Source: a virus (lineage: Duplodnaviria; Heunggongvirae; Uroviricota; Caudoviricetes). Taken from it: a stretch of DNA of 8,388 nt. Positions 1-8,388 of the stretch are shown one piece after another. Below the pieces are notes generated by a model, which worked only from the letters and a program-made list of their open reading frames with translations, did not search any database and was not told the origin of the DNA. Position 1 is the stretch's first letter. Every line of letters starts with the position of its first letter. The stretch lies in IMG/VR virus record IMGVR_UViG_3300028952_000009, one strand, 5' to 3'. The position numbers and the translations under genes are program-made.

Positions 1-36
1 TGAACAGGAGGGACAGCTGATAGAAACAGAAGCCAC
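1..36 (-). CDS. insA: IS1 InsA, first 12 codons only (gene runs off the left edge)
   Basis: Minus strand 36 to 1 reads GTG GCT TCT GTT TCT ATC AGC TGT CCC TCC TGT TCA, i.e. (M)ASVSISCPSCS, matching the recalled InsA N-terminus with a GTG start. Too short to be in the ORF track. Confidence 0.65.
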   Translation of the reverse strand, partial: MASVSISCPSCS

Positions 37-91
37 TGGAGCACCTCAAAAACACCATCATACACTAAATCAGTAAGTTGGCAGCATCACC
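1..91 (-). mobile_element. IS1: IS1 insertion sequence, terminal 91 bp; the element continues beyond the left window edge
   Basis: Positions 69-91 read ATCAGTAAGTTGGCAGCATCACC, the reverse complement of the IS1 terminal inverted repeat GGTGATGCTGCCAACTTACTGAT. Positions 1-68 continue as the reverse complement of the adjoining IS1 interior, including the insA start. The match is to recalled IS1 sequence, not a search. The element boundary is at 91/92 and the flanking bases 92-100 are TGATGGTTA. Confidence 0.8.
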
Positions 92-392: not shown

Positions 393-1475
393 TTAGAACT
401 GATACACCAGACCTACAGCGACGATGTCGTCGGTATCAATACCAGCTGTTTTGGTAAACTTACTATCGTCAATTAAGTTGATTTTGTAATCAACAAAAGT
501 GGACATGTTTTTATTAAAGTAGTAAGTAGCACCGACATCGACATACTTGACTAAGTCTCGGTCACCATGAACACCAAGGTCTTTACCTTTTGACTGAAGG
601 TAAGCAACAGATGGTCGCAGACCGAAGTCAAACTGATATTGTGCTACTGCTTCAAAGTTTTGTGCTTTGTTTGCAATATGGTTATTACCAAAAACGGTCA
701 TATTCTGAGTTTCAGAATATGTGGTAGCCAGATAGATATTGTTCGCATCATATTTCAGGCCTGCAGCCCATACTTCCGCATTTTTGCCGGAGGCATTGAA
801 TTTGCTCTTACCATAGGCGACCTGACCGTCAGTGCGATCTGATTTAGCATAGGTTGCACCCACGCCGAATCCTTCATACTCATAAGTAGTGGAGAAACCG
901 AAACCATCACCATTGGCTTCAGTTACGTCAGTGCGGTCATTTTTACCCTGATACTGAGCAGCAAAGTTCAGGCCATCGACCAGACCAAAGAAGTCGTTGT
1001 TACGATAGGTTGCAACACCAGTGGTGCGACCAGTCATGAACACATCTGTTTGGGTCCAGGTATCGCCACCGAATTCTGGCAGAACGTCAGTCCACGCACC
1101 GATGTCGTATGCTACACCGTAGTTACGGCCGTAATCGATTGAGCCGTAGTCACCGAATTTCAGGCCTGCAAATGCAAGACGGGTTTTGTCTTTGGAGGAA
1201 CCTTGAGATTCAGCGCGGTTGCCTTTGAATTCATATTCCCACTGACCGAAACCAGTCAGTTGATCGTTGATTTGGGTTTCACCTTTGAAGCCAAGACGGG
1301 CATAAGTAGTATCACCATCATCTGCATCGTTAGAGGAAAAGTAGTGCTTGGCATTAACTTTCCCGTACAGATCCAGCTTGTTACTGTCTTTATTATAAAT
1401 TTCAGCTGCCTGAGCAGACATCGCCATCAGTACTGATGCAGCTACAGCAGAAATTGCCACTGTTAATTTTTTCAT
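393..1475 (-). CDS. nmpC: Outer membrane porin of the OmpC/OmpF/PhoE family; prophage NmpC/Lc-type porin, apparently intact (360 aa)
   Basis: Full ORF from the track. N-terminal signal peptide [23 protein letters not shown] followed by AEIYNKD; porin-typical motifs; C-terminal aromatic ...VGLVYQF. SD-like AAGGG a few nt upstream of the ATG (complement of 1476-1490). Location between the Q region and the lysis cassette matches DLP12 nmpC and PA-2 lc. No IS5 interruption as in K-12. Confidence 0.92.
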
Positions 1476-2063: not shown

Positions 2064-2279
2064 ATGAAATCCATGGATAAGTTAACAACGGGTGTCGCCT
2101 ATGGCACCTCAGCAGGTAGTGCCGGTTACTGGTTTTTACAGCTGCTCGATAAAGTCACGCCCTCACAGTGGGCAGCAATAGGTGTGCTGGGTAGCCTGGT
2201 ATTTGGCCTGCTGACGTACCTGACAAACCTTTATTTCAAGATTAAAGAAGATAAGCGCAAGGCTGCGAGAGGTGAATAA
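2064..2279 (+). CDS. essD: Class II holin (pinholin), phage 21 S-type, 71 aa with dual-start motif
   Basis: ATG at 2064 is preceded by GAGGTGGGG (2053-2061). The product [26 protein letters not shown]... has two transmembrane segments (a Gly/Ala-rich SAR-like TMD1 and a hydrophobic TMD2) and a charged C-terminus. Met1-Lys-Ser-Met4 is the antiholin/holin dual start known for S21. The track ORF begins at 2019, but no RBS supports that start. Confidence 0.9.
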
Positions 2280-2776
2280 TGCCTCCATCATTACGAAAAG
2301 CCGTTGCTGCTGCTATTGGTGGCGGAGCAATTGCTATAGCATCAGTGTTAATCACTGGCCCAAGTGGTAACGATGGTCTGGAAGGTGTCAGCTACATACC
2401 ATACAAAGATATTGTTGGTGTATGGGCTGTATGTCACGGGCATACAGGAAAAGACATCATGCTCGGTAAAACGTATACCAAAGCAGAATGCAAAGCCCTC
2501 CTGAATAAAGACCTTGCCACGGTCGCCAGACAAATTAACCCGTACATAAAAGTTGATATACCGGAAACAACGCGCGGCGCTCTTTACTCGTTCGTTTACA
2601 ACGTGGGCGCTGGCAATTTCAGAACATCGACGCTTCTTCGCAAAATAAACCAGGGCGATATCAAAGGCGCATGTGATCAGCTACGTCGCTGGACATATGC
2701 TGGCGGTAAGCAATGGAAAGGTCTCATGACTCGTCGTGAGATTGAGCGTGAAATCTGTTTGTGGGGTCAGCAATGA
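2279..2776 (+). CDS. rrrD: SAR (signal-anchor-release) endolysin, T4-lysozyme-like muramidase, phage 21 R-type, 165 aa
   Basis: Start ATG overlaps the holin stop (TAATG at 2277-2281). N-terminal weakly hydrophobic Gly/Ala-rich SAR domain [20 protein letters not shown]. Glu35 (2381-2383) and Asp44 (2408-2410) are at T4L-like spacing. Residue 50 is Ala (gct, 2426-2428); see findings. Confidence 0.9.
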
Positions 2777-3234
2777 ACAGAGTAACCGCGATTATCTCCG
2801 CTCTGGTTATCTGCATCATCGTCTGCCTGTCATGGGCTGTTAATCATTACCGTGATAACGCCATTACCTACAAAGCCCAGCGCGACAAAAATGCCAGAGA
2901 ACTGAAGCTGGCGAACGCGGCAATTACTGACATGCAGATGCGCCAGCGTGATGTTGCTGCACTGGATGAAAAATACACGAAGGAGTTAGCTAATGCGAAA
3001 GCTGAAAATGATGCTCTGCGTGATGATGTTGCCGCTGGTCGTCGTCGGTTGCACATCAAAGCAGTCTGTCAGTCAGTGCGTGAAGCCACCACCGCCTCCG
3101 GCGTGGATAATGCAGCCTCCCCCCGACTGGCAGACACCGCTGAACGGGATTATTTCACCCTCAGAGAGAGGCTGATCACTATGCAAAAACAACTGGAAGG
3201 AACCCAGAAGTATATTAATGAGCAGTGCAGATAG
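2773..3234 (+). CDS. rzpD: Rz i-spanin (inner-membrane spanin subunit), 153 aa
   Basis: ATG at 2773-2775 overlaps the endolysin stop TGA at 2774-2776 (ATGA). N-terminal [23 protein letters not shown], then a coiled-coil-rich periplasmic domain. The track calls a GTG at 2761, which I reject because it lies inside the endolysin and the ATG gives the canonical overlap. Near-identical to recalled lambda Rz. Confidence 0.9.
2993..3175 (+). CDS. rzoD: Rz1 o-spanin lipoprotein, embedded in the +1 frame of Rz, 60 aa
   Basis: ATG at 2993 with AGGAG (2981-2985) 7 nt upstream. Lipoprotein signal [20 protein letters not shown] with lipobox VVG-C20; mature part is proline-rich (PPPPP). Lies wholly inside the Rz ORF in another frame. 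Confidence 0.85.
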
Positions 3235-3265: not shown

Positions 3266-3559
3266 TTATTGTGAGCAATACACACGCGCTTCCAGCGGAG
3301 TATAAATGCCTAAAGTAATAAAACCGAGCAATCCATTTACGAATGTTTGCTGGGTTTCTGTTTTAACAACATTTTCTGCGCCGCCACAAATTTTGGCTGC
3401 ATCAACAGTTTTCTCCTGTCCAATTCCCGAAACGAAGAAGTGATGGGTGATGGTTTCCTTTGGTGTTACTGCTGTCGGTTTGTTTCCAACAGTAAACGTC
3501 TGTTGAGCACATCCTGTAATAAGCATTGCCAGAGCGGCAGAAAACAACATTTTTTTCAT
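3266..3559 (-). CDS. borD: Bor lipoprotein (lambda bor family, serum-resistance-associated outer membrane lipoprotein), 97 aa
   Basis: Minus-strand ATG at 3557-3559 with AGGA about 7 nt upstream (complement of 3566-3569). Lipoprotein signal MKKMLFSAALAMLITGC (lipobox ITG-C). The track ORF extends to 3607, but the upstream Mets lack a signal-peptide context. Convergent with Rz, as in lambda. Confidence 0.9.
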   Translation of the reverse strand: MKKMLFSAALAMLITGCAQQTFTVGNKPTAVTPKETITHHFFVSGIGQEKTVDAAKICGGAENVVKTETQQTFVNGLLGFITLGIYTPLEARVYCSQ

Positions 3560-3919
3560 CTTATTATCCTGCATTGTTAAAAACGGCAGAATCCTATGTG
3601 ACAACAATTAAACGATAGTTAAATGGATTGATGAAAATTAAAACTATATAGGTGGATGCTCAGCCTATTGGAGGAGGGGGGGCACTCAGAATCCTGTGGA
3701 ATGAAATAAACCGCTCTTTCTGTCCATTACCCTTTTAGCTGCGCTGTATCGTCGCCGTATTCCCGCATTAACCATGACCGTAGCCCGACGGGGAATTCCT
3801 TCTGCGTGAGTGTGCGGGAATAATCAAAAACGATGCACACCGGGTTTTACTGTGCTGACAGACGCAGGGTTACCCTCATAGTCGCTTTTCCGGTGCGATG
3901 GTGGAAGAAACCGGGATGT

Positions 3920-4114
3920 TTATTCATCATCACTCTGGATTGATGTATATGCTCTCTTTTCTGACGTTAGTCTCCGACGGCAGGCTTCAATGACCCAGGC
4001 TGAGAAATTCCCAGACCCTTTTTGCTCAAGAGCGATGTTAATTTGTTCAATCATTTGGTTAGGAAAGCGGATGTTGCGGGTTGTTGTTCTGCGGGTTCTG
4101 TTCTTAGTTGACAT
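3920..4114 (-). CDS. ylcI: Small YlcI/YnfO-family (DUF3950) protein, 64 aa; predicted ribbon-helix-helix-like DNA-binding fold
   Basis: Full ORF from the track. Basic N-terminus (KNRTRRTTTRNIRF) followed by a strand-helix-G-x-S-helix pattern (NIRFPNQMIEQINIALEQKGSGNFSAWVIEACRRRL) typical of RHH proteins. Position immediately upstream of cos matches ylcI in DLP12 and an equivalent small ORF at the right end of lambda, by recollection. The RHH assignment is inference from sequence pattern. Confidence 0.75.
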   Translation of the reverse strand: MSTKNRTRRTTTRNIRFPNQMIEQINIALEQKGSGNFSAWVIEACRRRLTSEKRAYTSIQSDDE

Positions 4115-4313
4115 GAGGTTGCCCCGTATTCAGTGTCGCTGATTTGTATTGTCTGAAGTTGTTTTTACGTTAAGTTGATGCAGATCAATTAATACGATAC
4201 CTGCGTCATAATTGATTATTTGACGTGGTTTGATGGCGTAGATGCACGTTGTGACATGTAGATGATAATTATTATCATTTTGCGGGTCCTTTCCGGCGAT
4301 CCGACAGGTTACG

Positions 4314-4325
4314 GGGCGGCGACCT
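4314..4325. other. cosN: lambda-type cohesive-end site (12-nt GGGCGGCGACCT); cosQ-like sequence lies about 20-35 bp upstream (about 4280-4296)
   Basis: The sequence ACAGGTTACG|GGGCGGCGACCT|CGCGGGTTTTCGC at 4304-4338 matches the recalled junction of the lambda right and left ends around its 12-nt cohesive end. 4170-4313 resembles the recalled lambda right-end sequence. Confidence 0.8.
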
Positions 4326-4352
4326 CGCGGGTTTTCGCTATTTATGAAAATT

Positions 4353-4478
4353 TTCCGGTTTAAGGCATTTCCGTTCTTCTTCGTCGTAACTTAATGTTTT
4401 TATTTAAAATACCCCCTGAAAAGAAAGGAAACGACAGGTGCTGAAAACGAGCTTTTGGGCCTCTGTCGTTTCCTTTCT
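4353..4478. promoter_or_regulatory. cosB: terminase small-subunit (Nu1) binding sites R3, R2, R1, with an AT-rich IHF-type site between R3 and R2
   Basis: R1 CTGTCGTTTCCTTTCT (4463-4478) and its exact inverted copy AGAAAGGAAACGACAG (4423-4438, R2) are seen directly. A degenerate R3-like AAGGCATTTCCGTTCT is at 4353-4368. The AT-rich stretch 4381-4420 is a plausible IHF site. Spacing to cosN and to the Nu1 start (4503) matches the lambda layout. Confidence 0.65.
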
Positions 4479-4502
4479 CTGTTTTTGGCCGTGGAATGAA
4501 CA

Positions 4503-5078
4503 ATGGAAGTCAACAAAAAGCAGCTGGCTGACATTTTCGGTGCGAGTATCCGTACCATTCAGAACTGGCAGGAACAGGGAATGCCCGTTCTGCGAGGCGG
4601 TGGCAAGGGTAATGAGGTGCTTTATGACTCTGCCGCCGTTATAAGATGGTATGCCGAAAGGGATGCTGAAATTGAGAACGAAAAGCTGCGCCGGGAAGTT
4701 GAAGAACTGCGGCAGGCCAGCGAGACAGATCTCCAGCCAGGGACTATTGAGTACGAACGCCATCGACTTACGCGTGCGCAGGCCGACGCACAGGAGCTGA
4801 AAAATGCCAGAGACTCCGCTGAAGTGGTGGAAACCGCATTCTGTACTTTCGTGCTGTCGCGGATCGCAGGTGAAATTGCCAGTATTCTCGACGGGATCCC
4901 CCTGTCGGTGCAGCGGCGTTTTCCGGAACTGGAAAACCGACATGTTGATTTCCTGAAACGGGATATCATCAAAGCCATGAACAAAGCAGCCGCGCTGGAT
5001 GAACTGATACCCGAACACGGCACTGGTCGGCGTGCAGGTGGACTCGGAGCAGTTCGGCAGCCAGCAGGTGAGCCGTAA
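4503..5078 (+). CDS. nohD: Terminase small subunit Nu1 homolog, C-terminally truncated by a deletion: about 170 Nu1-like residues, then a 21-residue out-of-frame tail read from J-derived DNA
   Basis: ATG at 4503. [54 protein letters not shown]... is the Nu1 winged-HTH DNA-binding N-terminus. Nu1 similarity runs to ...[10 protein letters not shown] (through about 5011); the rest ([21 protein letters not shown]) is unrelated. The gpA-interacting extreme C-terminus is therefore lost. Confidence 0.88.
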
Positions 5079-7854
5079 TTATCATCTTCGCGGGCGCATT
5101 CTGCAGGTGCCGTCGAACTATAACCCGCAGACGCGGCAATACAGCGGTATCTGGGACGGAACGTTTAAGCCGGCATACAGCAACAACCCGGCCTGGTGTC
5201 TGTGGGATATGCTGACCCACCCGCGCTACGGCATGGGGAAACGTCTTGGTGCGGCGGATGTGGATAAATGGGCGCTGTATGTCATCGGCCAGTACTGCGA
5301 CCAGTCAGTGCCGGACGGTTTTGGCGGCACGGAGCCGCGCATCACCTGTAATGCCTACCTGACCACGCAGCGTAAGGCGTGGGATGTGCTCAGTGATTTC
5401 TGCTCGGCGATGCGCTGTATGCCGGTATGGAACGGGCAGACGCTGACGTTCGTGCAGGACCGACCATCAGATAAGGTGTGGACCTATAACCGCAGTAATG
5501 TGGTGATGCCGGATGATGGCGCGCCGTTCCGCTACAGCTTCAGCGCCCTGAAGGACCGCCATAATGCCGTTGAGGTGAACTGGATTGACCCGAATAACGG
5601 CTGGGAGACGGCGACAGAGCTTGTTGAAGATACGCAGGCCATTCTCCGTTACGGTCGTAACGTCACGAAGATGGATGCCTTTGGCTGTACCAGCCGGGGG
5701 CAGGCACACCGCGCCGGGCTGTGGCTGATTAAAACGGAGCTGCTGGAAACGCAGACCGTGGACTTCAGCGTGGGTGCCGAAGGGCTTCGCCATGTACCGG
5801 GCGATGTCATTGAAATCTGCGATGATGACTATGCCGGTATCCGCACCGGCGGGCGCGTGCTGGCGGTAAACAGCCAGACCCGGACGCTGACGCTCGACCG
5901 TGAAATCACGCTGCCATCTTCCGGCACCACGCTGATAAGCCTGGTTGACGGGCAGGGGAGTCCGGTCAGCGTGGAGGTTCAGTCCGTCACCGACGGCGTG
6001 AAGGTGAAAGTGAGCCGTGTTCCTGACGGCGTTGCTGAATACAGCGTATGGGGGCTGAAGCTGCCGACGTTGCGCCAGCGCCTGTTCCGCTGCGTGAGTA
6101 TCCGTGAGAACGACGACGGCACGTATGCCATCACCGCCGTGCAGCATGTACCGGAAAAAGAGGCCATCGTGGATAACGGGGCGCACTTTGACGGCGACCA
6201 GAGCGGCACGGTAAATGGTGTCACGCCGCCAGCGGTGCAGCACCTGACCGCAGAAGTCACCGCAGACAGCGGGGAATACCAGGTGCTGGCCCGCTGGGAT
6301 ACGCCGAAGGTGGTGAAGGGCGTGAGCTTCCTGCTTCGCCTGACCGTGGCAGCGGATGACGGCCGTGAGCGACTGGTCAGCACGGCCCGGACGACGGAAA
6401 CCACTTACCGCTTCACACAACTGGCTCTGGGGAACTACAGGCTGACAGTCCGGGCAGTAAATGCGTGGGGGCAGCAGGGCGAGCCGGCGTCGGTATCGTT
6501 CCGGATTGCCGCACCGGCAGCGCCGTCGCAGATTGAGCTGACACCGGGGTATTTTCAGATAACCGCCACGCCGCATCTTGCGGTTTATGATCCGACGGTA
6601 CAGTTTGAGTTCTGGTTCTCGGAAAAGCGGATTGCGGATATCAGGCAGGTTGAAACCACAGCACGCTATCTTGGCACGGCGCTGTACTGGATAGCCGCCA
6701 GTATCAATATCAAACCGGGCCATGATTATTATTTTTACATCCGCAGTGTGAACACCGTTGGCAAATCGGCATTCGTGGAGGCTGTTGGCCAGCCGAGTGA
6801 TGATGCATCCGGCTATCTGAATTTTTTCAAAGGAGAGATAGGGAAAACCCATCTGGCTCAGGAGTTGTGGACGCAGATTGATAACGGTCAGCTTGCGCCT
6901 GACCTGGCGGAAATCAGAACGTCCATCACGGATGTCAGTAATGAAATCACGCAGACCGTCAATAAGAAACTGGAAGACCAGAGTGCGGCAATCCAGCAGA
7001 TACAGAAGGTTCAGGTTGATACAAATAATAACCTGAACAGCATGTGGGCTGTGAAGCTGCAGCAGATGCAGGACGGACGCCTTTATATCGCGGGTATTGG
7101 TGCCGGTATTGAGAATACCCCTGACGGTATGCAGAGTCAGGTGCTGCTGGCGGCGGACAGGATTGCGATGATTAATCCTGCGAATGGCAACACAAAGCCG
7201 ATGTTTGTTGGTCAGGGCGATCAGATATTCATGAACGAAGTGTTCCTGAAATATCTGACGGCTCCCACCATTACCAGCGGCGGTAATCCTCCGGCATTTT
7301 CCCTGACACCGGACGGGCGGCTGACGGCGAAAAATGCCGATATTAGCGGTAACGTGAATGCGAACTCCGGGACGCTCAACAACGTCACGATTAACGAGAA
7401 CTGCCGGGTTCTGGGAAAACTGTCCGCGAACCAGATTGAAGGCGATCTCGTTAAAACAGTGGGCAAAGCTTTCCCCCGGGACTCCCGTGCACCGGAGCGG
7501 TGGCCATCAGGGACCATTACCGTCAGGGTTTATGACGATCAGCCGTTTGACCGGCAAATTGTTATTCCGGCGGTGGCATTCAGTGGCGCTAAACATGAGC
7601 AAGATCATACTGATATCTACTCCTCATGCCGTCTGATAGTACGAAAAAACGGTGCTGAAATTTATAACCGAACGGCTCTGGATAATACGCTGATATATAC
7701 GGGTGTTATTGATATGCCTGCAGGCAGTGGTGTAATGACACTGGAATTTTCTGTATCGGCATGGCTGGTAAATGGCTGGTATCCCACAGCAAGTATCAGC
7801 GATTTGCTGGTTGTGGTGATGAAGAAAGCCACTGCAGGCATCATGATTAGCTGA
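5008..7854 (+). pseudogene. J: 5'-truncated tail-tip / host-specificity protein J (central fibre); about 948 codons open and in frame, but no native start or promoter
   Basis: From 5008 ([51 protein letters not shown]...) the frame matches recalled lambda J from roughly residue 185 onward and stays open to the stop at 7852-7854. A TGA at 5005-5007 sits just upstream in this frame. The track's 5032 start is a GTG inside J with no SD. The frame is +1 relative to Nu1, so no fusion protein is made. Confidence 0.85.
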
Positions 7855-7872
7855 ATTTTATAACCCATAACG

Positions 7873-7899
7873 GGCGTCAGAAATGACGCCTTTTTTATT
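7873..7899 (+). terminator. Rho-independent terminator immediately after J
   Basis: GGCGTCA (7873-7879), loop GAAA (7880-7883), TGACGCC (7884-7890), then TTTTTTATT (7891-7899). Confidence 0.7.
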
Positions 7900-7920
7900 G
7901 CAGAAAAGCGAGAGGTAATT

Positions 7921-8388
7921 ATGCGTAAACTTTATGCCGCCATTTTGTCCGTAGCCATTTGTCTGGCCGTATCCGGTGCGCCTGCATGGGCGTCTGAACA
8001 TCAGTCCACGCTGAGCGCGGGGTATCTTCATGCCTCGACGAACGTTCCCGGCAGCGATGATCTGAACGGGATTAACGTGAAATACCGTTATGAGTTTACG
8101 GACACGCTGGGGCTGGTGACGTCATTCAGTTATGCCAATGCCAAAGATGAGCAAAAAACGCATTACAGCGATACCCGCTGGCATGAAGATTCCGTGCGTA
8201 ACCGCTGGTTCAGCGTGATGGCGGGGCCGTCTGTGCGCGTGAATGAATGGTTCAGCGCGTATGCGATGGCGGGTATGGCTTACAGCCGTGTGTCGACCTT
8301 CTCCGGGGATTATCTCCGCGTAACTGACAACAAGGGGAAAACGCACGATGTGCTGACCGGAAGTGATGACGGTCGCCACAGCAACACG
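7921..8388 (+). CDS. lom: Lom outer membrane protein (Ail/Lom/OmpX family), 3' partial (first 156 codons; gene runs off the right edge)
   Basis: ATG at 7921 with GAGAGG/GAGG (about 7908-7914) upstream. Signal peptide MRKLYAAILSVAICLAVSGAPAWA followed by SEHQSTLSAGYLHASTN...; near-identical to recalled lambda Lom. Gene order J then lom as in lambda. Confidence 0.9.
   Translation, partial: MRKLYAAILSVAICLAVSGAPAWASEHQSTLSAGYLHASTNVPGSDDLNGINVKYRYEFTDTLGLVTSFSYANAKDEQKTHYSDTRWHEDSVRNRWFSVMAGPSVRVNEWFSAYAMAGMAYSRVSTFSGDYLRVTDNKGKTHDVLTGSDDGRHSNT

What the first reader, a model, noticed from the sequence alone, without database searches (positions are those of the whole stretch)
4279..5078. Intact cos (cosQ-cosN-cosB) and Nu1 DNA-binding domain retained in a prophage that cannot build capsids
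cosN, the R1/R2 inverted sites and the Nu1 winged-HTH N-terminus all look undamaged, while gpA and every structural gene are gone. Such a remnant cannot package itself. A superinfecting or co-resident lambdoid phage with a compatible terminase could, however, cut at this cos and package the adjacent chromosome rightward (through the J remnant and lom, and beyond), giving cos-dependent helper-mediated transduction. The truncated Nu1 could also bind cosB and interfere with a helper's packaging.
Basis: inference. Interest (0 to 1): 0.45.

Follow-up and report, generated by a model that had tools for sequence, protein, structure and literature searches.

The report
Lambda cos site in dead prophage
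This is the intact DNA-packaging start site (cos) and most of the small terminase gene of a lambda-like virus, left in a decayed DLP12-type prophage of E. coli B-type strains; it is a known kind of viral fossil, and a helper phage could probably cut it but could not finish packaging from it.

Summary
Window 4284-4482 carries a complete lambda-type cos (cosQ, cosN, I2, R3, I1, R2, R1). It is followed by nu1 (4503-5078), which keeps codons 1-170 of 181.

One 15.4-kb deletion at a 4-bp TACC microhomology fused nu1 to J codon ~212. It removed A, all head genes and most tail genes.

Window 4260-5011 is 100% identical to the deposited phage PhiR42_1, which has nu1-A-W and the start of B uninterrupted in the fetched stretch. 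So cos carries no change private to the remnant.

The locus is the B-lineage allele of cryptic prophage DLP12 at argU (REL606, BL21(DE3), ATCC 8739 and wild isolates). K-12 DLP12 also keeps a lambda-type cos and a full-length nohD. Published work shows its nu1 works in lambda and that recombination with lambda clusters at cos.

Cutting by a lambda-specificity helper is plausible but untested. Lambda terminase needs a second cos to finish packaging, and none lies within about 50 kb downstream in five host genomes. In BL21(DE3) the DE3 cos is 220 kb away. Efficient transduction is therefore unlikely; cos-stimulated recombination with incoming phages is the better-supported outcome.

Interference by Nu1' is untested. 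Known kind, low interest.

The parts
4284..4290 (+). cosQ heptamer GGGTCCT (lambda bp 48473-48479), the termination signal
   Evidence: Exact match, single copy in the window. The lambda coordinates of cosQ are from my own knowledge. The 7-bp size and its conservation are stated in PMC4669245.
4308..4329 (+). cosN, the 22-bp nicking site. The 12-nt cohesive end is 4314-4325; nicks are expected at 4313/4314 (top strand) and 4325/4326 (bottom strand).
   Evidence: 22 of 22 identical to lambda, K-12 DLP12 and five phages.
4330..4362 (+). I2 spacer between cosN and cosB (lambda bp 17-49), including the critical bp 30-35 at 4343-4348
   Evidence: No mismatch to lambda. The role of bp 30-35 is from PMC4856287.
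4363..4381 (+). R3, the principal Nu1 binding site (lambda bp 50-65 by Feiss numbering). The core reads CATTTCC, with G54A at 4367.
   Evidence: A54 is also present in phage PhiR42_1 and in 20 of 120 IMG/VR lambda-type R3 matches, several of them upstream of intact Nu1-A-W-B-C-D-E. bp 54 lies outside the NMR contacts (bp 55-63) and the critical bp 56, 58 and 59 (PMC9026076, PMC4669245).
4382..4415 (.). I1 region (IHF bending site between R3 and R2). Its position is inferred from lambda.
   Evidence: Aligned with lambda bp 69-102. The two substitutions (4386, 4415) are shared with PhiR34_1 and PhiR42_1. A simple IHF consensus scan found no exact match. The boundaries are inferred.
4416..4433 (-). 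R2, a Nu1 binding site in inverted orientation
   Evidence: CTGAAAAGAAAGGAAACG, identical to lambda.
4467..4482 (+). R1, the accessory Nu1 binding site
   Evidence: CGTTTCCTTTCTCTGT, identical to lambda. The R2-R1 spacer is 1 bp shorter than in lambda, as in all four phages aligned with lambda (PhiR34_1, PhiR68_2, Turner, mEp332), in K-12 DLP12 and in PhiR42_1.
4503..5078 (+). nu1' (small terminase subunit, truncated and fused). The native part is 4503-5012 (residues 1-170), followed by 21 out-of-frame residues and a stop at 5076-5078.
   Evidence: Pfam PF07471 positions 1-164 of 164, E = 2.9e-101. Residues 1-98 match PDB 6HN7_B and 1-68 match 1J9I. RefSeq WP_000453609.1 'terminase small subunit'. 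The exact protein is listed in 1388 blocks of the public collection.
5008..5011 (+). Deletion junction: the 4-bp microhomology TACC joins lambda ~bp 699 (nu1) to ~bp 16140 (J).
   Evidence: Three-way comparison of window, lambda nu1 and lambda J. About 15.4 kb of lambda-equivalent DNA is missing (A through I, plus J codons 1 to ~211).
5012..7854 (+). J' remnant of the tail-tip protein (lambda J from codon ~212 to the end). The ORF is called from GTG at 5032.
   Evidence: 92-97% identity to lambda J up to 6801, diverged in the receptor-binding part. Pfam Phage-tail_3, Ig_J, Phage_Tail_Tip and Ig_GpJ_C. PGAP marks it as a pseudogene missing its N-terminus.
3920..4114 (-). ylcI (YlcI/YnfO family, DUF3950), the last gene to the left of cos. 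Context only, not part of cos.

Best explanation
This is the cos-nu1 segment of a decayed DLP12-type lambdoid prophage at argU (the E. coli B-lineage allele), kept by descent and not by any demonstrable selection.

One illegitimate deletion at a TACC microhomology removed the last 11 codons of nu1, then A, all head genes, most tail genes and the first ~211 codons of J. The element therefore cannot make terminase or capsids.

cos itself is sequence-identical to that of a circulating phage. It should therefore still be a competent substrate for a lambda-specificity terminase supplied in trans. The expected steps are:
1. [quoted passage not shown]
2. gpA nicks at 4313/4314 and 4325/4326.
3. The complex stays on the cosB side and translocates rightward, into nu1', J' and the chromosome.

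No second cos lies within a capsid length downstream, so such packaging cannot be terminated. It should give dead-end filled heads and a chromosomal double-strand break, not infectious transducing particles.

The realistic biological outcome is cos-stimulated homologous recombination between the remnant and an infecting lambda-like phage. That would exchange the lysis, cos and nu1 alleles, as shown experimentally for the K-12 allele of this locus.

Shown here: anatomy, identity to viable relatives, genomic location, absence of a downstream cos. Inferred: cutting by a helper, abortive packaging, and recombination in B strains.
For: - cos subsites align base for base with lambda.
- Window 4260-5011 is 100% identical to phage PhiR42_1, which carries uninterrupted nu1, A, W and the start of B in the fetched stretch. 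PhiR34_1 differs at only 3 positions and shares the whole porin-lysis-bor-ylcI-cos layout. Phages of the same PhiR series are used in plaque assays (bioRxiv 10.1101/2025.11.03.685801).
- The deletion junction and its microhomology are mapped.
- The locus is DLP12 at argU in REL606, CP029371 and BL21(DE3), and in the nine places returned by the look-up of encoding contigs.
- K-12 DLP12 has the same cosQ and cosN and a full nohD.
- PMC3945230 reports three things. Lambda x DLP12 recombinants are about 100-fold more frequent than with Rac or Qin. Ten of 19 junctions lie next to cos. DLP12 nu1, R and Rz work in lambda.
- A second cos is required for termination (PMC6687093; PMC4856287).
- No second cosN lies within about 50 kb in five genomes.
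- The DLP12-like locus was lost in 10 of 12 LTEE populations, so it is dispensable without phage (PMC4173774).
Against: - No experiment on this allele exists in what I could search. Cutting of a single-copy chromosomal cos by a helper is inferred.
- PMC3945230 only suggests, and does not show, that the DLP12 cos is cut.
- I could not trace the publication describing PhiR42_1, so its viability rests on its deposit as a complete phage genome with a named host.
- The source genome of the window is not in the collections searched, so its downstream sequence beyond lom is unknown.
Confidence: 0.8

Rival explanations
1. A helper phage of lambda specificity cuts this cos and packages the adjacent chromosome rightward into infectious particles. 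This would give cos-dependent, directional (lateral-like) transduction of about 40-50 kb: J', stf, appY, ompT, envY, nfrAB, cus, and pheP through ent/fep.
For: - cos is intact.
- Compatible helpers are common, and one is resident in BL21(DE3).
- The genes that would be carried are listed.
- From my own knowledge, not retrieved here: classical lambda work (Sternberg and Weisberg 1975, docL particles) showed in situ packaging from a prophage cos into host DNA.
Against: - Termination needs a downstream cosQ plus cosN, and none lies within about 50 kb in five genomes.
- The DE3 cos is 220.6 kb away.
- Without a terminal cut, the protruding DNA prevents tail joining (PMC6687093). Packaging that fails to stop at cos is a lethal, unfinished event (PMC4856287).
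- A single-copy, non-replicating chromosomal cos competes with hundreds of phage cos copies.
Confidence: 0.1
2. Nu1' acts as a dominant-negative or decoy. It has an intact winged-HTH and self-association region but an altered C-terminus. It occupies cosB or forms mixed oligomers with helper Nu1 and so lowers helper packaging, which would be a defence-like effect.
For: - Residues 1-170 are native and the Pfam domain is complete.
- The TerL-binding function maps to the TerS C-terminus (PMC4669245 introduction), and the last 11 residues are replaced here.
- PICI Rpp proteins show that TerS-like winged-HTH partners can redirect or block helper TerS (PMC6739421, PMC9026076).
Against: - There is no evidence of expression. 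Promoter-like sites upstream are no more frequent than in shuffled sequence, so transcription would depend on late read-through from the Q/pR' region.
- It is unknown whether loss of 11 residues abolishes gpA binding.
- A full-length, functional nu1 sits in K-12 DLP12 with no reported interference with lambda growth (PMC3945230).
- Lambda and its relatives are routinely grown on B strains (own knowledge).
- The locus is quickly lost in the LTEE (PMC4173774).
Confidence: 0.06
3. cos is functionally dead in its chromosomal context despite its intact sequence, for example because the topology, copy number or IHF occupancy is wrong. The segment would then be a purely inert fossil that no phage ever touches.
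For: - A single chromosomal copy with no replication module: P is truncated and O is absent.
- No direct evidence of cleavage exists.
Against: - The sequence is identical to a phage cos.
- Lambda prophage cos sites are used in situ (own knowledge).
- Junctions cluster at cos in lambda x DLP12 crosses (PMC3945230).
Confidence: 0.1
4. The remnant behaves as a satellite, like a PICI. It excises with intD, and multimers of about 22-25 kb units are packaged from cos to cos by a helper.
For: - intD is intact and the element is roughly half a lambda genome in length.
- cos is present.
Against: - There is no replication module, the xis-like gene is a fragment, and there is no rpp, alpA or primase-type gene.
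- The cosB is the helper's own type, not a PICI-specific site (PMC9026076).
- Nothing would generate concatemers.
Confidence: 0.03

Closest known systems
Cryptic prophage DLP12 of E. coli K-12 (cos plus nohD, at argU)
   Same: - Same chromosomal site (argU).
- Same gene order: quuD, porin (nmpC), essD, rrrD, rzpD, bor, ylcI, cos, nu1 homologue.
- Identical cosQ, cosN, R2 and R1.
- Incapable of capsid production.
   Different: - K-12 keeps ybcV and ybcW, a full-length nohD (178 of 181 residues identical to lambda Nu1) and a fragment of A (aaaD) fused to tail-fibre assembly genes.
- The B-lineage allele ends nu1 at codon 170 and joins it to J codon ~212.
- The R3 variants differ: K-12 has C53T, this allele has G54A.
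- The porin gene is interrupted by IS5 in K-12 and by IS1 in REL606 and BL21. It is intact in the window.
Phage lambda cos (cosQ-cosN-I2-cosB) and Nu1
   Same: - All subsites are present in the same order and spacing.
- cosQ, cosN, I2, R2 and R1 are identical.
- Nu1 residues 1-47, which include the recognition helix, are identical.
   Different: - G54A in R3, two I1 substitutions, three spacer changes including a 1-bp deletion, and T176G. All are shared with phage PhiR42_1.
- There is no gpA partner, and the Nu1 C-terminal 11 residues are replaced.
Phages PhiR42_1 (PV340562) and PhiR34_1 (PV340559)
   Same: - PhiR42_1 is 100% identical over window 4260-5011.
- PhiR34_1 is 99.4% identical over 3600-5011 and has the same porin-holin-endolysin-Rz-bor-ylcI-cos layout.
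   Different: In the stretches fetched, both continue from nu1 into A, W and the start of portal gene B; genes further downstream were not examined. The remnant jumps from nu1 to J.
cos-bearing phage-inducible chromosomal islands (e.g. EcCICFT073, with cos plus rpp)
   Same: A chromosomal element without its own capsid genes carries a lambda-like cosQ/cosN that depends on a helper terminase.
   Different: - PICIs excise, replicate and encode Rpp, which retargets helper TerS to a PICI-specific site that lacks helper-type R sequences (PMC9026076, PMC6739421).
- This remnant has the helper's own cosB, no rpp and no replication module.
Lateral transduction by pac prophages, and lambda in situ packaging (docL particles)
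   Same: Packaging starts at a chromosomally integrated site and proceeds in one direction into host DNA.
   Different: - Lateral transduction relies on headful cutting.
- Lambda terminase needs a second cos, so single-cos packaging is abortive (PMC6687093).

Membership tests
lambda-type cos site | cosQ heptamer GGGTCCT about 17 bp to the left of the cosN core | tested here: met
   4284-4290, exact.
lambda-type cos site | cosN: the 12-nt cohesive-end sequence GGGCGGCGACCT with symmetric flanks | tested here: met
   4308-4329, 22 of 22 identical to lambda.
lambda-type cos site | I2 spacer of correct length with bp 30-35 intact. The cosN-R3 distance is critical. | tested here: met
   No mismatch or indel between lambda bp 1 and 53. 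The requirement is from PMC4856287 and PMC4669245.
lambda-type cos site | cosB with R3, an IHF site, inverted R2 and R1, of lambda specificity (T at bp 56, C at bp 58 and 59) | tested here: met
   R3 is CATTTCCGTTCTTCTT, with bp 56, 58 and 59 unchanged. R2 and R1 are identical to lambda. G54A is also present in phage PhiR42_1.
lambda-type cos site | Is actually bound and nicked by terminase | not testable with these tools
   Needs an in vitro cos-cleavage assay or in vivo break mapping.
Nu1 / lambda small terminase (Pfam PF07471) | Full-length match to the family profile with an N-terminal winged HTH | tested here: met
   Profile positions 1-164 of 164, 336 bits. Residues 1-68 match PDB 1J9I.
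Nu1 / lambda small terminase (Pfam PF07471) | Native C-terminal end that contributes to binding of the large subunit | tested here: not met
   Residues 171-181 (GLLSEYIEQSG) are replaced by 21 out-of-frame residues. The functional consequence is unknown.
DLP12 cryptic prophage | Integrated at tRNA-Arg argU, with intD and the quuD-porin-essD-rrrD-rzpD-bor-ylcI order | tested here: met
   Shown in REL606, CP029371, BL21(DE3) and nine further contexts that carry the identical Nu1'. The window itself shows only the porin-to-J' part.
Phage-inducible chromosomal island (cos type) | rpp gene next to cos, its own replication module, and no helper-type R sequences | tested here: not met
   Helper-type R3, R2 and R1 are present. 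The gene next to cos is nu1 itself. No replication gene is intact.
Chromosomal platform for cos-dependent transduction | A second co-oriented cosQ/cosN within one capsid length (about 38-51 kb) downstream | tested here: not met
   No cosN-like site (up to 5 of 22 mismatches) within about 50 kb in REL606, B771, E4, GF4 or TUM10008. In BL21(DE3) the distance is 220.6 kb.

The most novel reading that the evidence does not exclude
In B-lineage strains that also carry or meet a lambda-specificity phage, terminase cuts this chromosomal cos and fills heads with the 40-50 kb to its right (J', stf, appY/ompT where present, cus, ent/fep). BL21(DE3), with its non-excising DE3 prophage, is the clearest case. 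Some non-canonical end processing would then yield transfer-competent particles. That would be cos-initiated, lateral-like transduction from a prophage fossil in a widely used laboratory strain.
Probability: 0.07. Interest if true: 0.55.

Novelty: already known. Interest (0 to 1): 0.18.

Why it matters
As it stands, this is an ordinary and well-understood kind of prophage fossil. It has three modest practical points.

- E. coli B strains, including BL21(DE3) and the LTEE ancestor REL606, carry a sequence-perfect lambda cos flanked by about 0.4 kb of lambda homology on the left and 0.7 kb on the right. Experiments with lambda cos mutants or cosmids on B hosts can be confounded by marker rescue, as the Feiss laboratory notes for K-12. 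The true laboratory strain C lacks the locus.
- BL21(DE3) holds both this cos and a lambda terminase source. It is therefore a ready-made system to test whether a single chromosomal cos is cut and what happens to the DNA.
- The remnant is a reservoir of lysis, cos and nu1 alleles for recombination with incoming lambdoid phages.

Tried and rejected
1. I first took G54A in R3 for a private, possibly inactivating mutation, because lambda and four phages have G. I rejected this. A54 occurs in 20 of 120 IMG/VR matches, several with intact head modules, and in phage PhiR42_1. It lies outside the known contact bases.

2. I thought I had found a conflict with the statement in PMC4669245 that E. coli C has no lambda cosN, because 'E. 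coli strain C' CP029371 carries this cos. I rejected this. PMC6805351 says CP029371 is unrelated to laboratory strain C. The true C genome, CP020543, has an empty argU site (envY-argU-fimZ).

3. A scan of GTDB species-representative genomes for the exact nu1-J junction found nothing. The source genome of the window stays unidentified.

4. A promoter and terminator scan around nu1' gave no more sites than shuffled sequence.

5. A full-text search for 'docL' returned only irrelevant papers. The classical docL work is cited from memory only.

6. I could not find the paper describing the PhiR phage panel. Only a preprint that uses sister phages in plaque assays turned up.

7. I considered a PICI-like satellite reading and rejected it. 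There is no rpp and no replication module, and the cosB is the helper's own type.
Full report
**What is there**

The window reads, from left to right:
- the outer 90 bp of an IS1 element (1-90);
- an intact porin gene on the minus strand (393-1475);
- a phage-21-type holin, endolysin and Rz/Rz1 (2064-3234);
- bor/iss (3266-3559, minus strand);
- ylcI (3920-4114, minus strand);
- a non-coding stretch;
- an ORF of 191 codons (4503-5078);
- a 940-codon ORF (5032-7854);
- the start of lom (7921 onward).

I aligned 3700-5030 with the joined ends of reference lambda, NC_001416. This gives a simple offset: window position = lambda bp + 4313.

On that frame the subsites are as follows.
- cosQ (GGGTCCT) is at 4284-4290.
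- The 22-bp cosN core is at 4308-4329, with the cohesive end at 4314-4325.
- I2 is 4330-4362.
- R3 is 4363-4381.
- R2 is 4416-4433, inverted.
- R1 is 4467-4482.

cosQ, cosN, I2, R2 and R1 are identical to lambda. The differences in cos are:
- G54A in R3 (4367);
- A73G and T102C in the I1 region;
- three changes in the R2-R1 spacer, including a 1-bp deletion;
- T176G.

**The ORF and the deletion**

The ORF at 4503 is nu1. Residues 1-170 are native, with K48R, A75T and L132I against lambda. The reading frame then runs out of frame into J sequence for 21 codons.

It covers the whole Pfam Phage_Nu1 profile (positions 1-164 of 164, E = 2.9e-101). It also matches the solved Nu1 DNA-binding domain (1J9I, 6HN7_B).

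The junction is at a 4-bp microhomology. Lambda nu1 reads ...GATACC|GGGG and lambda J reads ...GCTACC|CGAACACGG. The window reads GATACCCGAACACGG.

Lambda-equivalent bp ~700-16139 are missing.

**Is cos damaged?**

The only cos difference not seen in my first set of viable relatives was G54A in R3. That set was lambda, PhiR34_1, PhiR68_2, Turner and mEp332.

R3 is the most important Nu1 site. According to the Feiss laboratory it spans bp 50-65, the NMR contacts cover bp 55-63, and bp 56, 58 and 59 are the critical bases (PMC9026076; PMC4669245). So bp 54 lies inside R3 but outside the mapped contacts.

I scanned IMG/VR for the R3 sequence with that base left free. It returned 120 loci: 99 with G, 20 with A and 1 with T. 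Of the A54 loci:
- ten continue into a full-length lambda-type nu1;
- three (L124, L019, L053) show uninterrupted Nu1-A-W-B-C-D-E;
- a fourth (L051) is intact as far as the locus reaches.

A BLAST of the cosN-I2-R3 segment against cultured phage genomes found one perfect match, PhiR42_1. Direct alignment shows that PhiR42_1 is identical to the window over 4260-5011. That is the whole of cos plus nu1 codons 1-170. PhiR42_1 carries nu1, A, W and the start of B uninterrupted in the fetched stretch.

The remnant's cos therefore has no private change. That test comes out negative.

Caveat: I could not find the paper describing PhiR42_1. A preprint uses sister phages of the same PhiR panel in plaque assays.

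**Where it comes from**

The cos-nu1'-J' segment is 100% identical to the following:
- E. coli B REL606;
- other B derivatives, including BL21, BL21(DE3), C41/C43 and NEBExpress;
- ATCC 8739;
- an isolate named 'strain C' (CP029371);
- various wild isolates.

In the genomes whose full flank I inspected, the element sits at tRNA-Arg argU in the DLP12 order: intD ... quuD, porin, essD, rrrD, rzpD, bor, ylcI, cos, nu1', J', stf ... appY, ompT (partial flanks). There are no head genes.

K-12 DLP12 has the same layout with identical cosQ, cosN, R2 and R1. Its nohD is full-length (178 of 181 residues identical to lambda Nu1) and is followed by a fragment of A. So the window holds the B-lineage allele of a long-known cryptic prophage, with a different internal deletion.

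Lambda-type cos plus nu1 is commonplace. In 3899 of 5426 complete E. coli genomes, one place covers at least 80% of window 4250-5100.

**What it can and cannot do**

The packaging model is established for lambda (PMC4669245).
1. [quoted passage not shown]
2. gpA nicks cosN.
3. The complex remains on the cosB end, docks on a prohead and translocates toward nu1, which is rightward here.
4. Termination needs cosQ and cosN of the next cos.

Without proper termination the event is dead-end (PMC4856287). Uncut protruding DNA blocks tail attachment, which is why cos phages are not expected to transduce from a single site (PMC6687093).

I looked for a second cos downstream.
- In REL606 there is no cosN-like sequence (up to 6 of 22 mismatches) within 55 kb. 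The only 12-mers with two mismatches lack a cosQ.
- In four wild genomes that carry further lambda-type cos sites elsewhere, the 50 kb downstream is plain chromosome: appY/ompT, nfrAB, cus, pheP, ent/fep. There is no cosN-like site.
- In BL21(DE3) the resident DE3 prophage supplies intact nu1, A and head genes in the same orientation. Its cos lies 220.6 kb to the right.

So initiation by a helper is plausible, but productive transduction is not expected.

**The better-supported outcome**

For the K-12 allele, De Paepe et al. (PMC3945230) reported three relevant results.
- Lambda acquires DLP12 DNA about 100-fold more often than Rac or Qin DNA.
- Ten of 19 sequenced junctions lie right next to cos. 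The authors attribute this to cos breaks stimulating recombination.
- Recombinants carrying DLP12 nu1, R or Rz are viable.

Phage 434B carries about 5.5 kb of DLP12 (PMC9119081). The Feiss laboratory avoids K-12 hosts for some crosses because of recombination with defective-prophage cos (PMC4669245).

By sequence, the B allele offers about 0.4 kb of 97-100% homology to the left of cosN and 0.7 kb to the right.

The locus has no detectable value to the host without phage. The DLP12-like region was deleted in 10 of 12 LTEE populations (PMC4173774).

**Nu1' interference**

Nu1' keeps the DNA-binding and self-association regions and loses only the last 11 residues. The TerS C-terminus carries the TerL-binding function (PMC4669245).

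A poisoning effect is conceivable, and PICI Rpp proteins provide a precedent for TerS-like partners. There is no sign of an own promoter and no data. I rate it at a few per cent.

**A lead that dissolved**

CP029371 is named 'strain C' and carries this cos. That seemed to contradict the statement that E. coli C has no lambda cosN. However, Krol et al. say CP029371 is unrelated to laboratory strain C (PMC6805351). The true C genome, CP020543, has envY-argU-fimZ with no prophage. There is no conflict.

**The ends of the window**

No complete E. coli genome holds the window end to end. Coverage stops at 7899.

The last 889 bp (the J 3' end plus lom) match, at 100%, the Qin-type remnant of REL606. 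That remnant lies 1.05 Mb away on the opposite strand. The window therefore joins DLP12-left to Qin-right inside J. The cause is either a real recombinant or inversion in an unsampled strain, or an assembly join across the repeated J segment.

**Verdict**

The site is intact and helper-cuttable in principle. Transduction and interference are unsupported.
- The kind of feature is already known: the DLP12 cos/nohD.
- Interest is low. The one useful angle is that BL21(DE3) is a natural test bed for what happens at a lone chromosomal cos.

Noticed in passing
window 7500-8388 (and the coverage break at 7899): The J 3' end plus lom is not contiguous with this DLP12-type remnant in any of 5,426 complete E. 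coli genomes. In REL606 the identical segment belongs to the Qin-type remnant at 1,606,079-1,606,967, on the opposite strand. The window therefore looks like a DLP12/Qin recombinant joined inside J. It is either a roughly 1-Mb inversion or exchange in an unsampled strain, or an assembly join across the repeat.
   Followed up: partly
window 1-90: These bases are the terminal 90 bp of IS1 (reverse complement of its left end), abutting the 3' flank of an intact porin gene. In REL606 and BL21 an IS1 sits inside the porin gene instead. In K-12 an IS5 interrupts nmpC. Strain CP029371 has no IS here. These are independent IS hits on the same small region.
   Followed up: partly
window 393-1475 (minus strand): An intact 360-aa OmpC/NmpC-type porin gene lies antisense between the Q/late-promoter region and the lysis genes. 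The same arrangement is seen in phage PhiR34_1. It is a moron that is a pseudogene in both K-12 and the B laboratory strains but is whole here.
   Followed up: no
window 3920-4114 (minus strand): A 64-aa YlcI/YnfO (DUF3950) ORF ends about 170 bp to the left of cosQ and is almost identical in lambda (lambda bp ~48,109-48,303). The reference lambda record NC_001416 does not annotate it, while PGAP and newer phage records do. Its function is unknown, and it is conserved right next to cos.
   Followed up: no
L143/L144 (NZ_CP020543.1) compared with L129 (NZ_CP029371.1): The genome deposited as 'E. coli strain C' (CP029371, cow's milk, Germany) carries the full DLP12-type remnant. True laboratory strain C (CP020543) has an empty argU site with envY next to argU. 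The shared name could mislead anyone choosing a cos-free host from database records.
   Followed up: yes
L130 (BL21(DE3), NC_012971.2 548,587-550,491) compared with L001 (REL606): The BL21 lineage has about 0.87 kb less DNA inside J' than REL606. Its tail-fibre genes run straight into the deletion that removes appY and ompT up to cusS. cos and nu1' are untouched.
   Followed up: partly
IMG/VR loci L062, L070, L065, L067, L111: Other lambda-type cos sites carrying A54 are followed by a nu1 that matches lambda Nu1 over only 43%, 77% or 93% of its length. One of them (L111) is followed by part of the capsid gene E. Some of this may reflect where the stored sequence ends. If real, prophage decay has repeatedly left cos in place with different right-hand deletion end points. 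I did not test whether this reflects position or selection.
   Followed up: no
window 2993-3175 (+): An embedded 60-aa ORF with a lipoprotein signal ([20 protein letters not shown]...) lies in the +1 frame inside Rz. It is the Rz1 o-spanin, intact, so the whole lysis cassette of this dead prophage looks functional.
   Followed up: no
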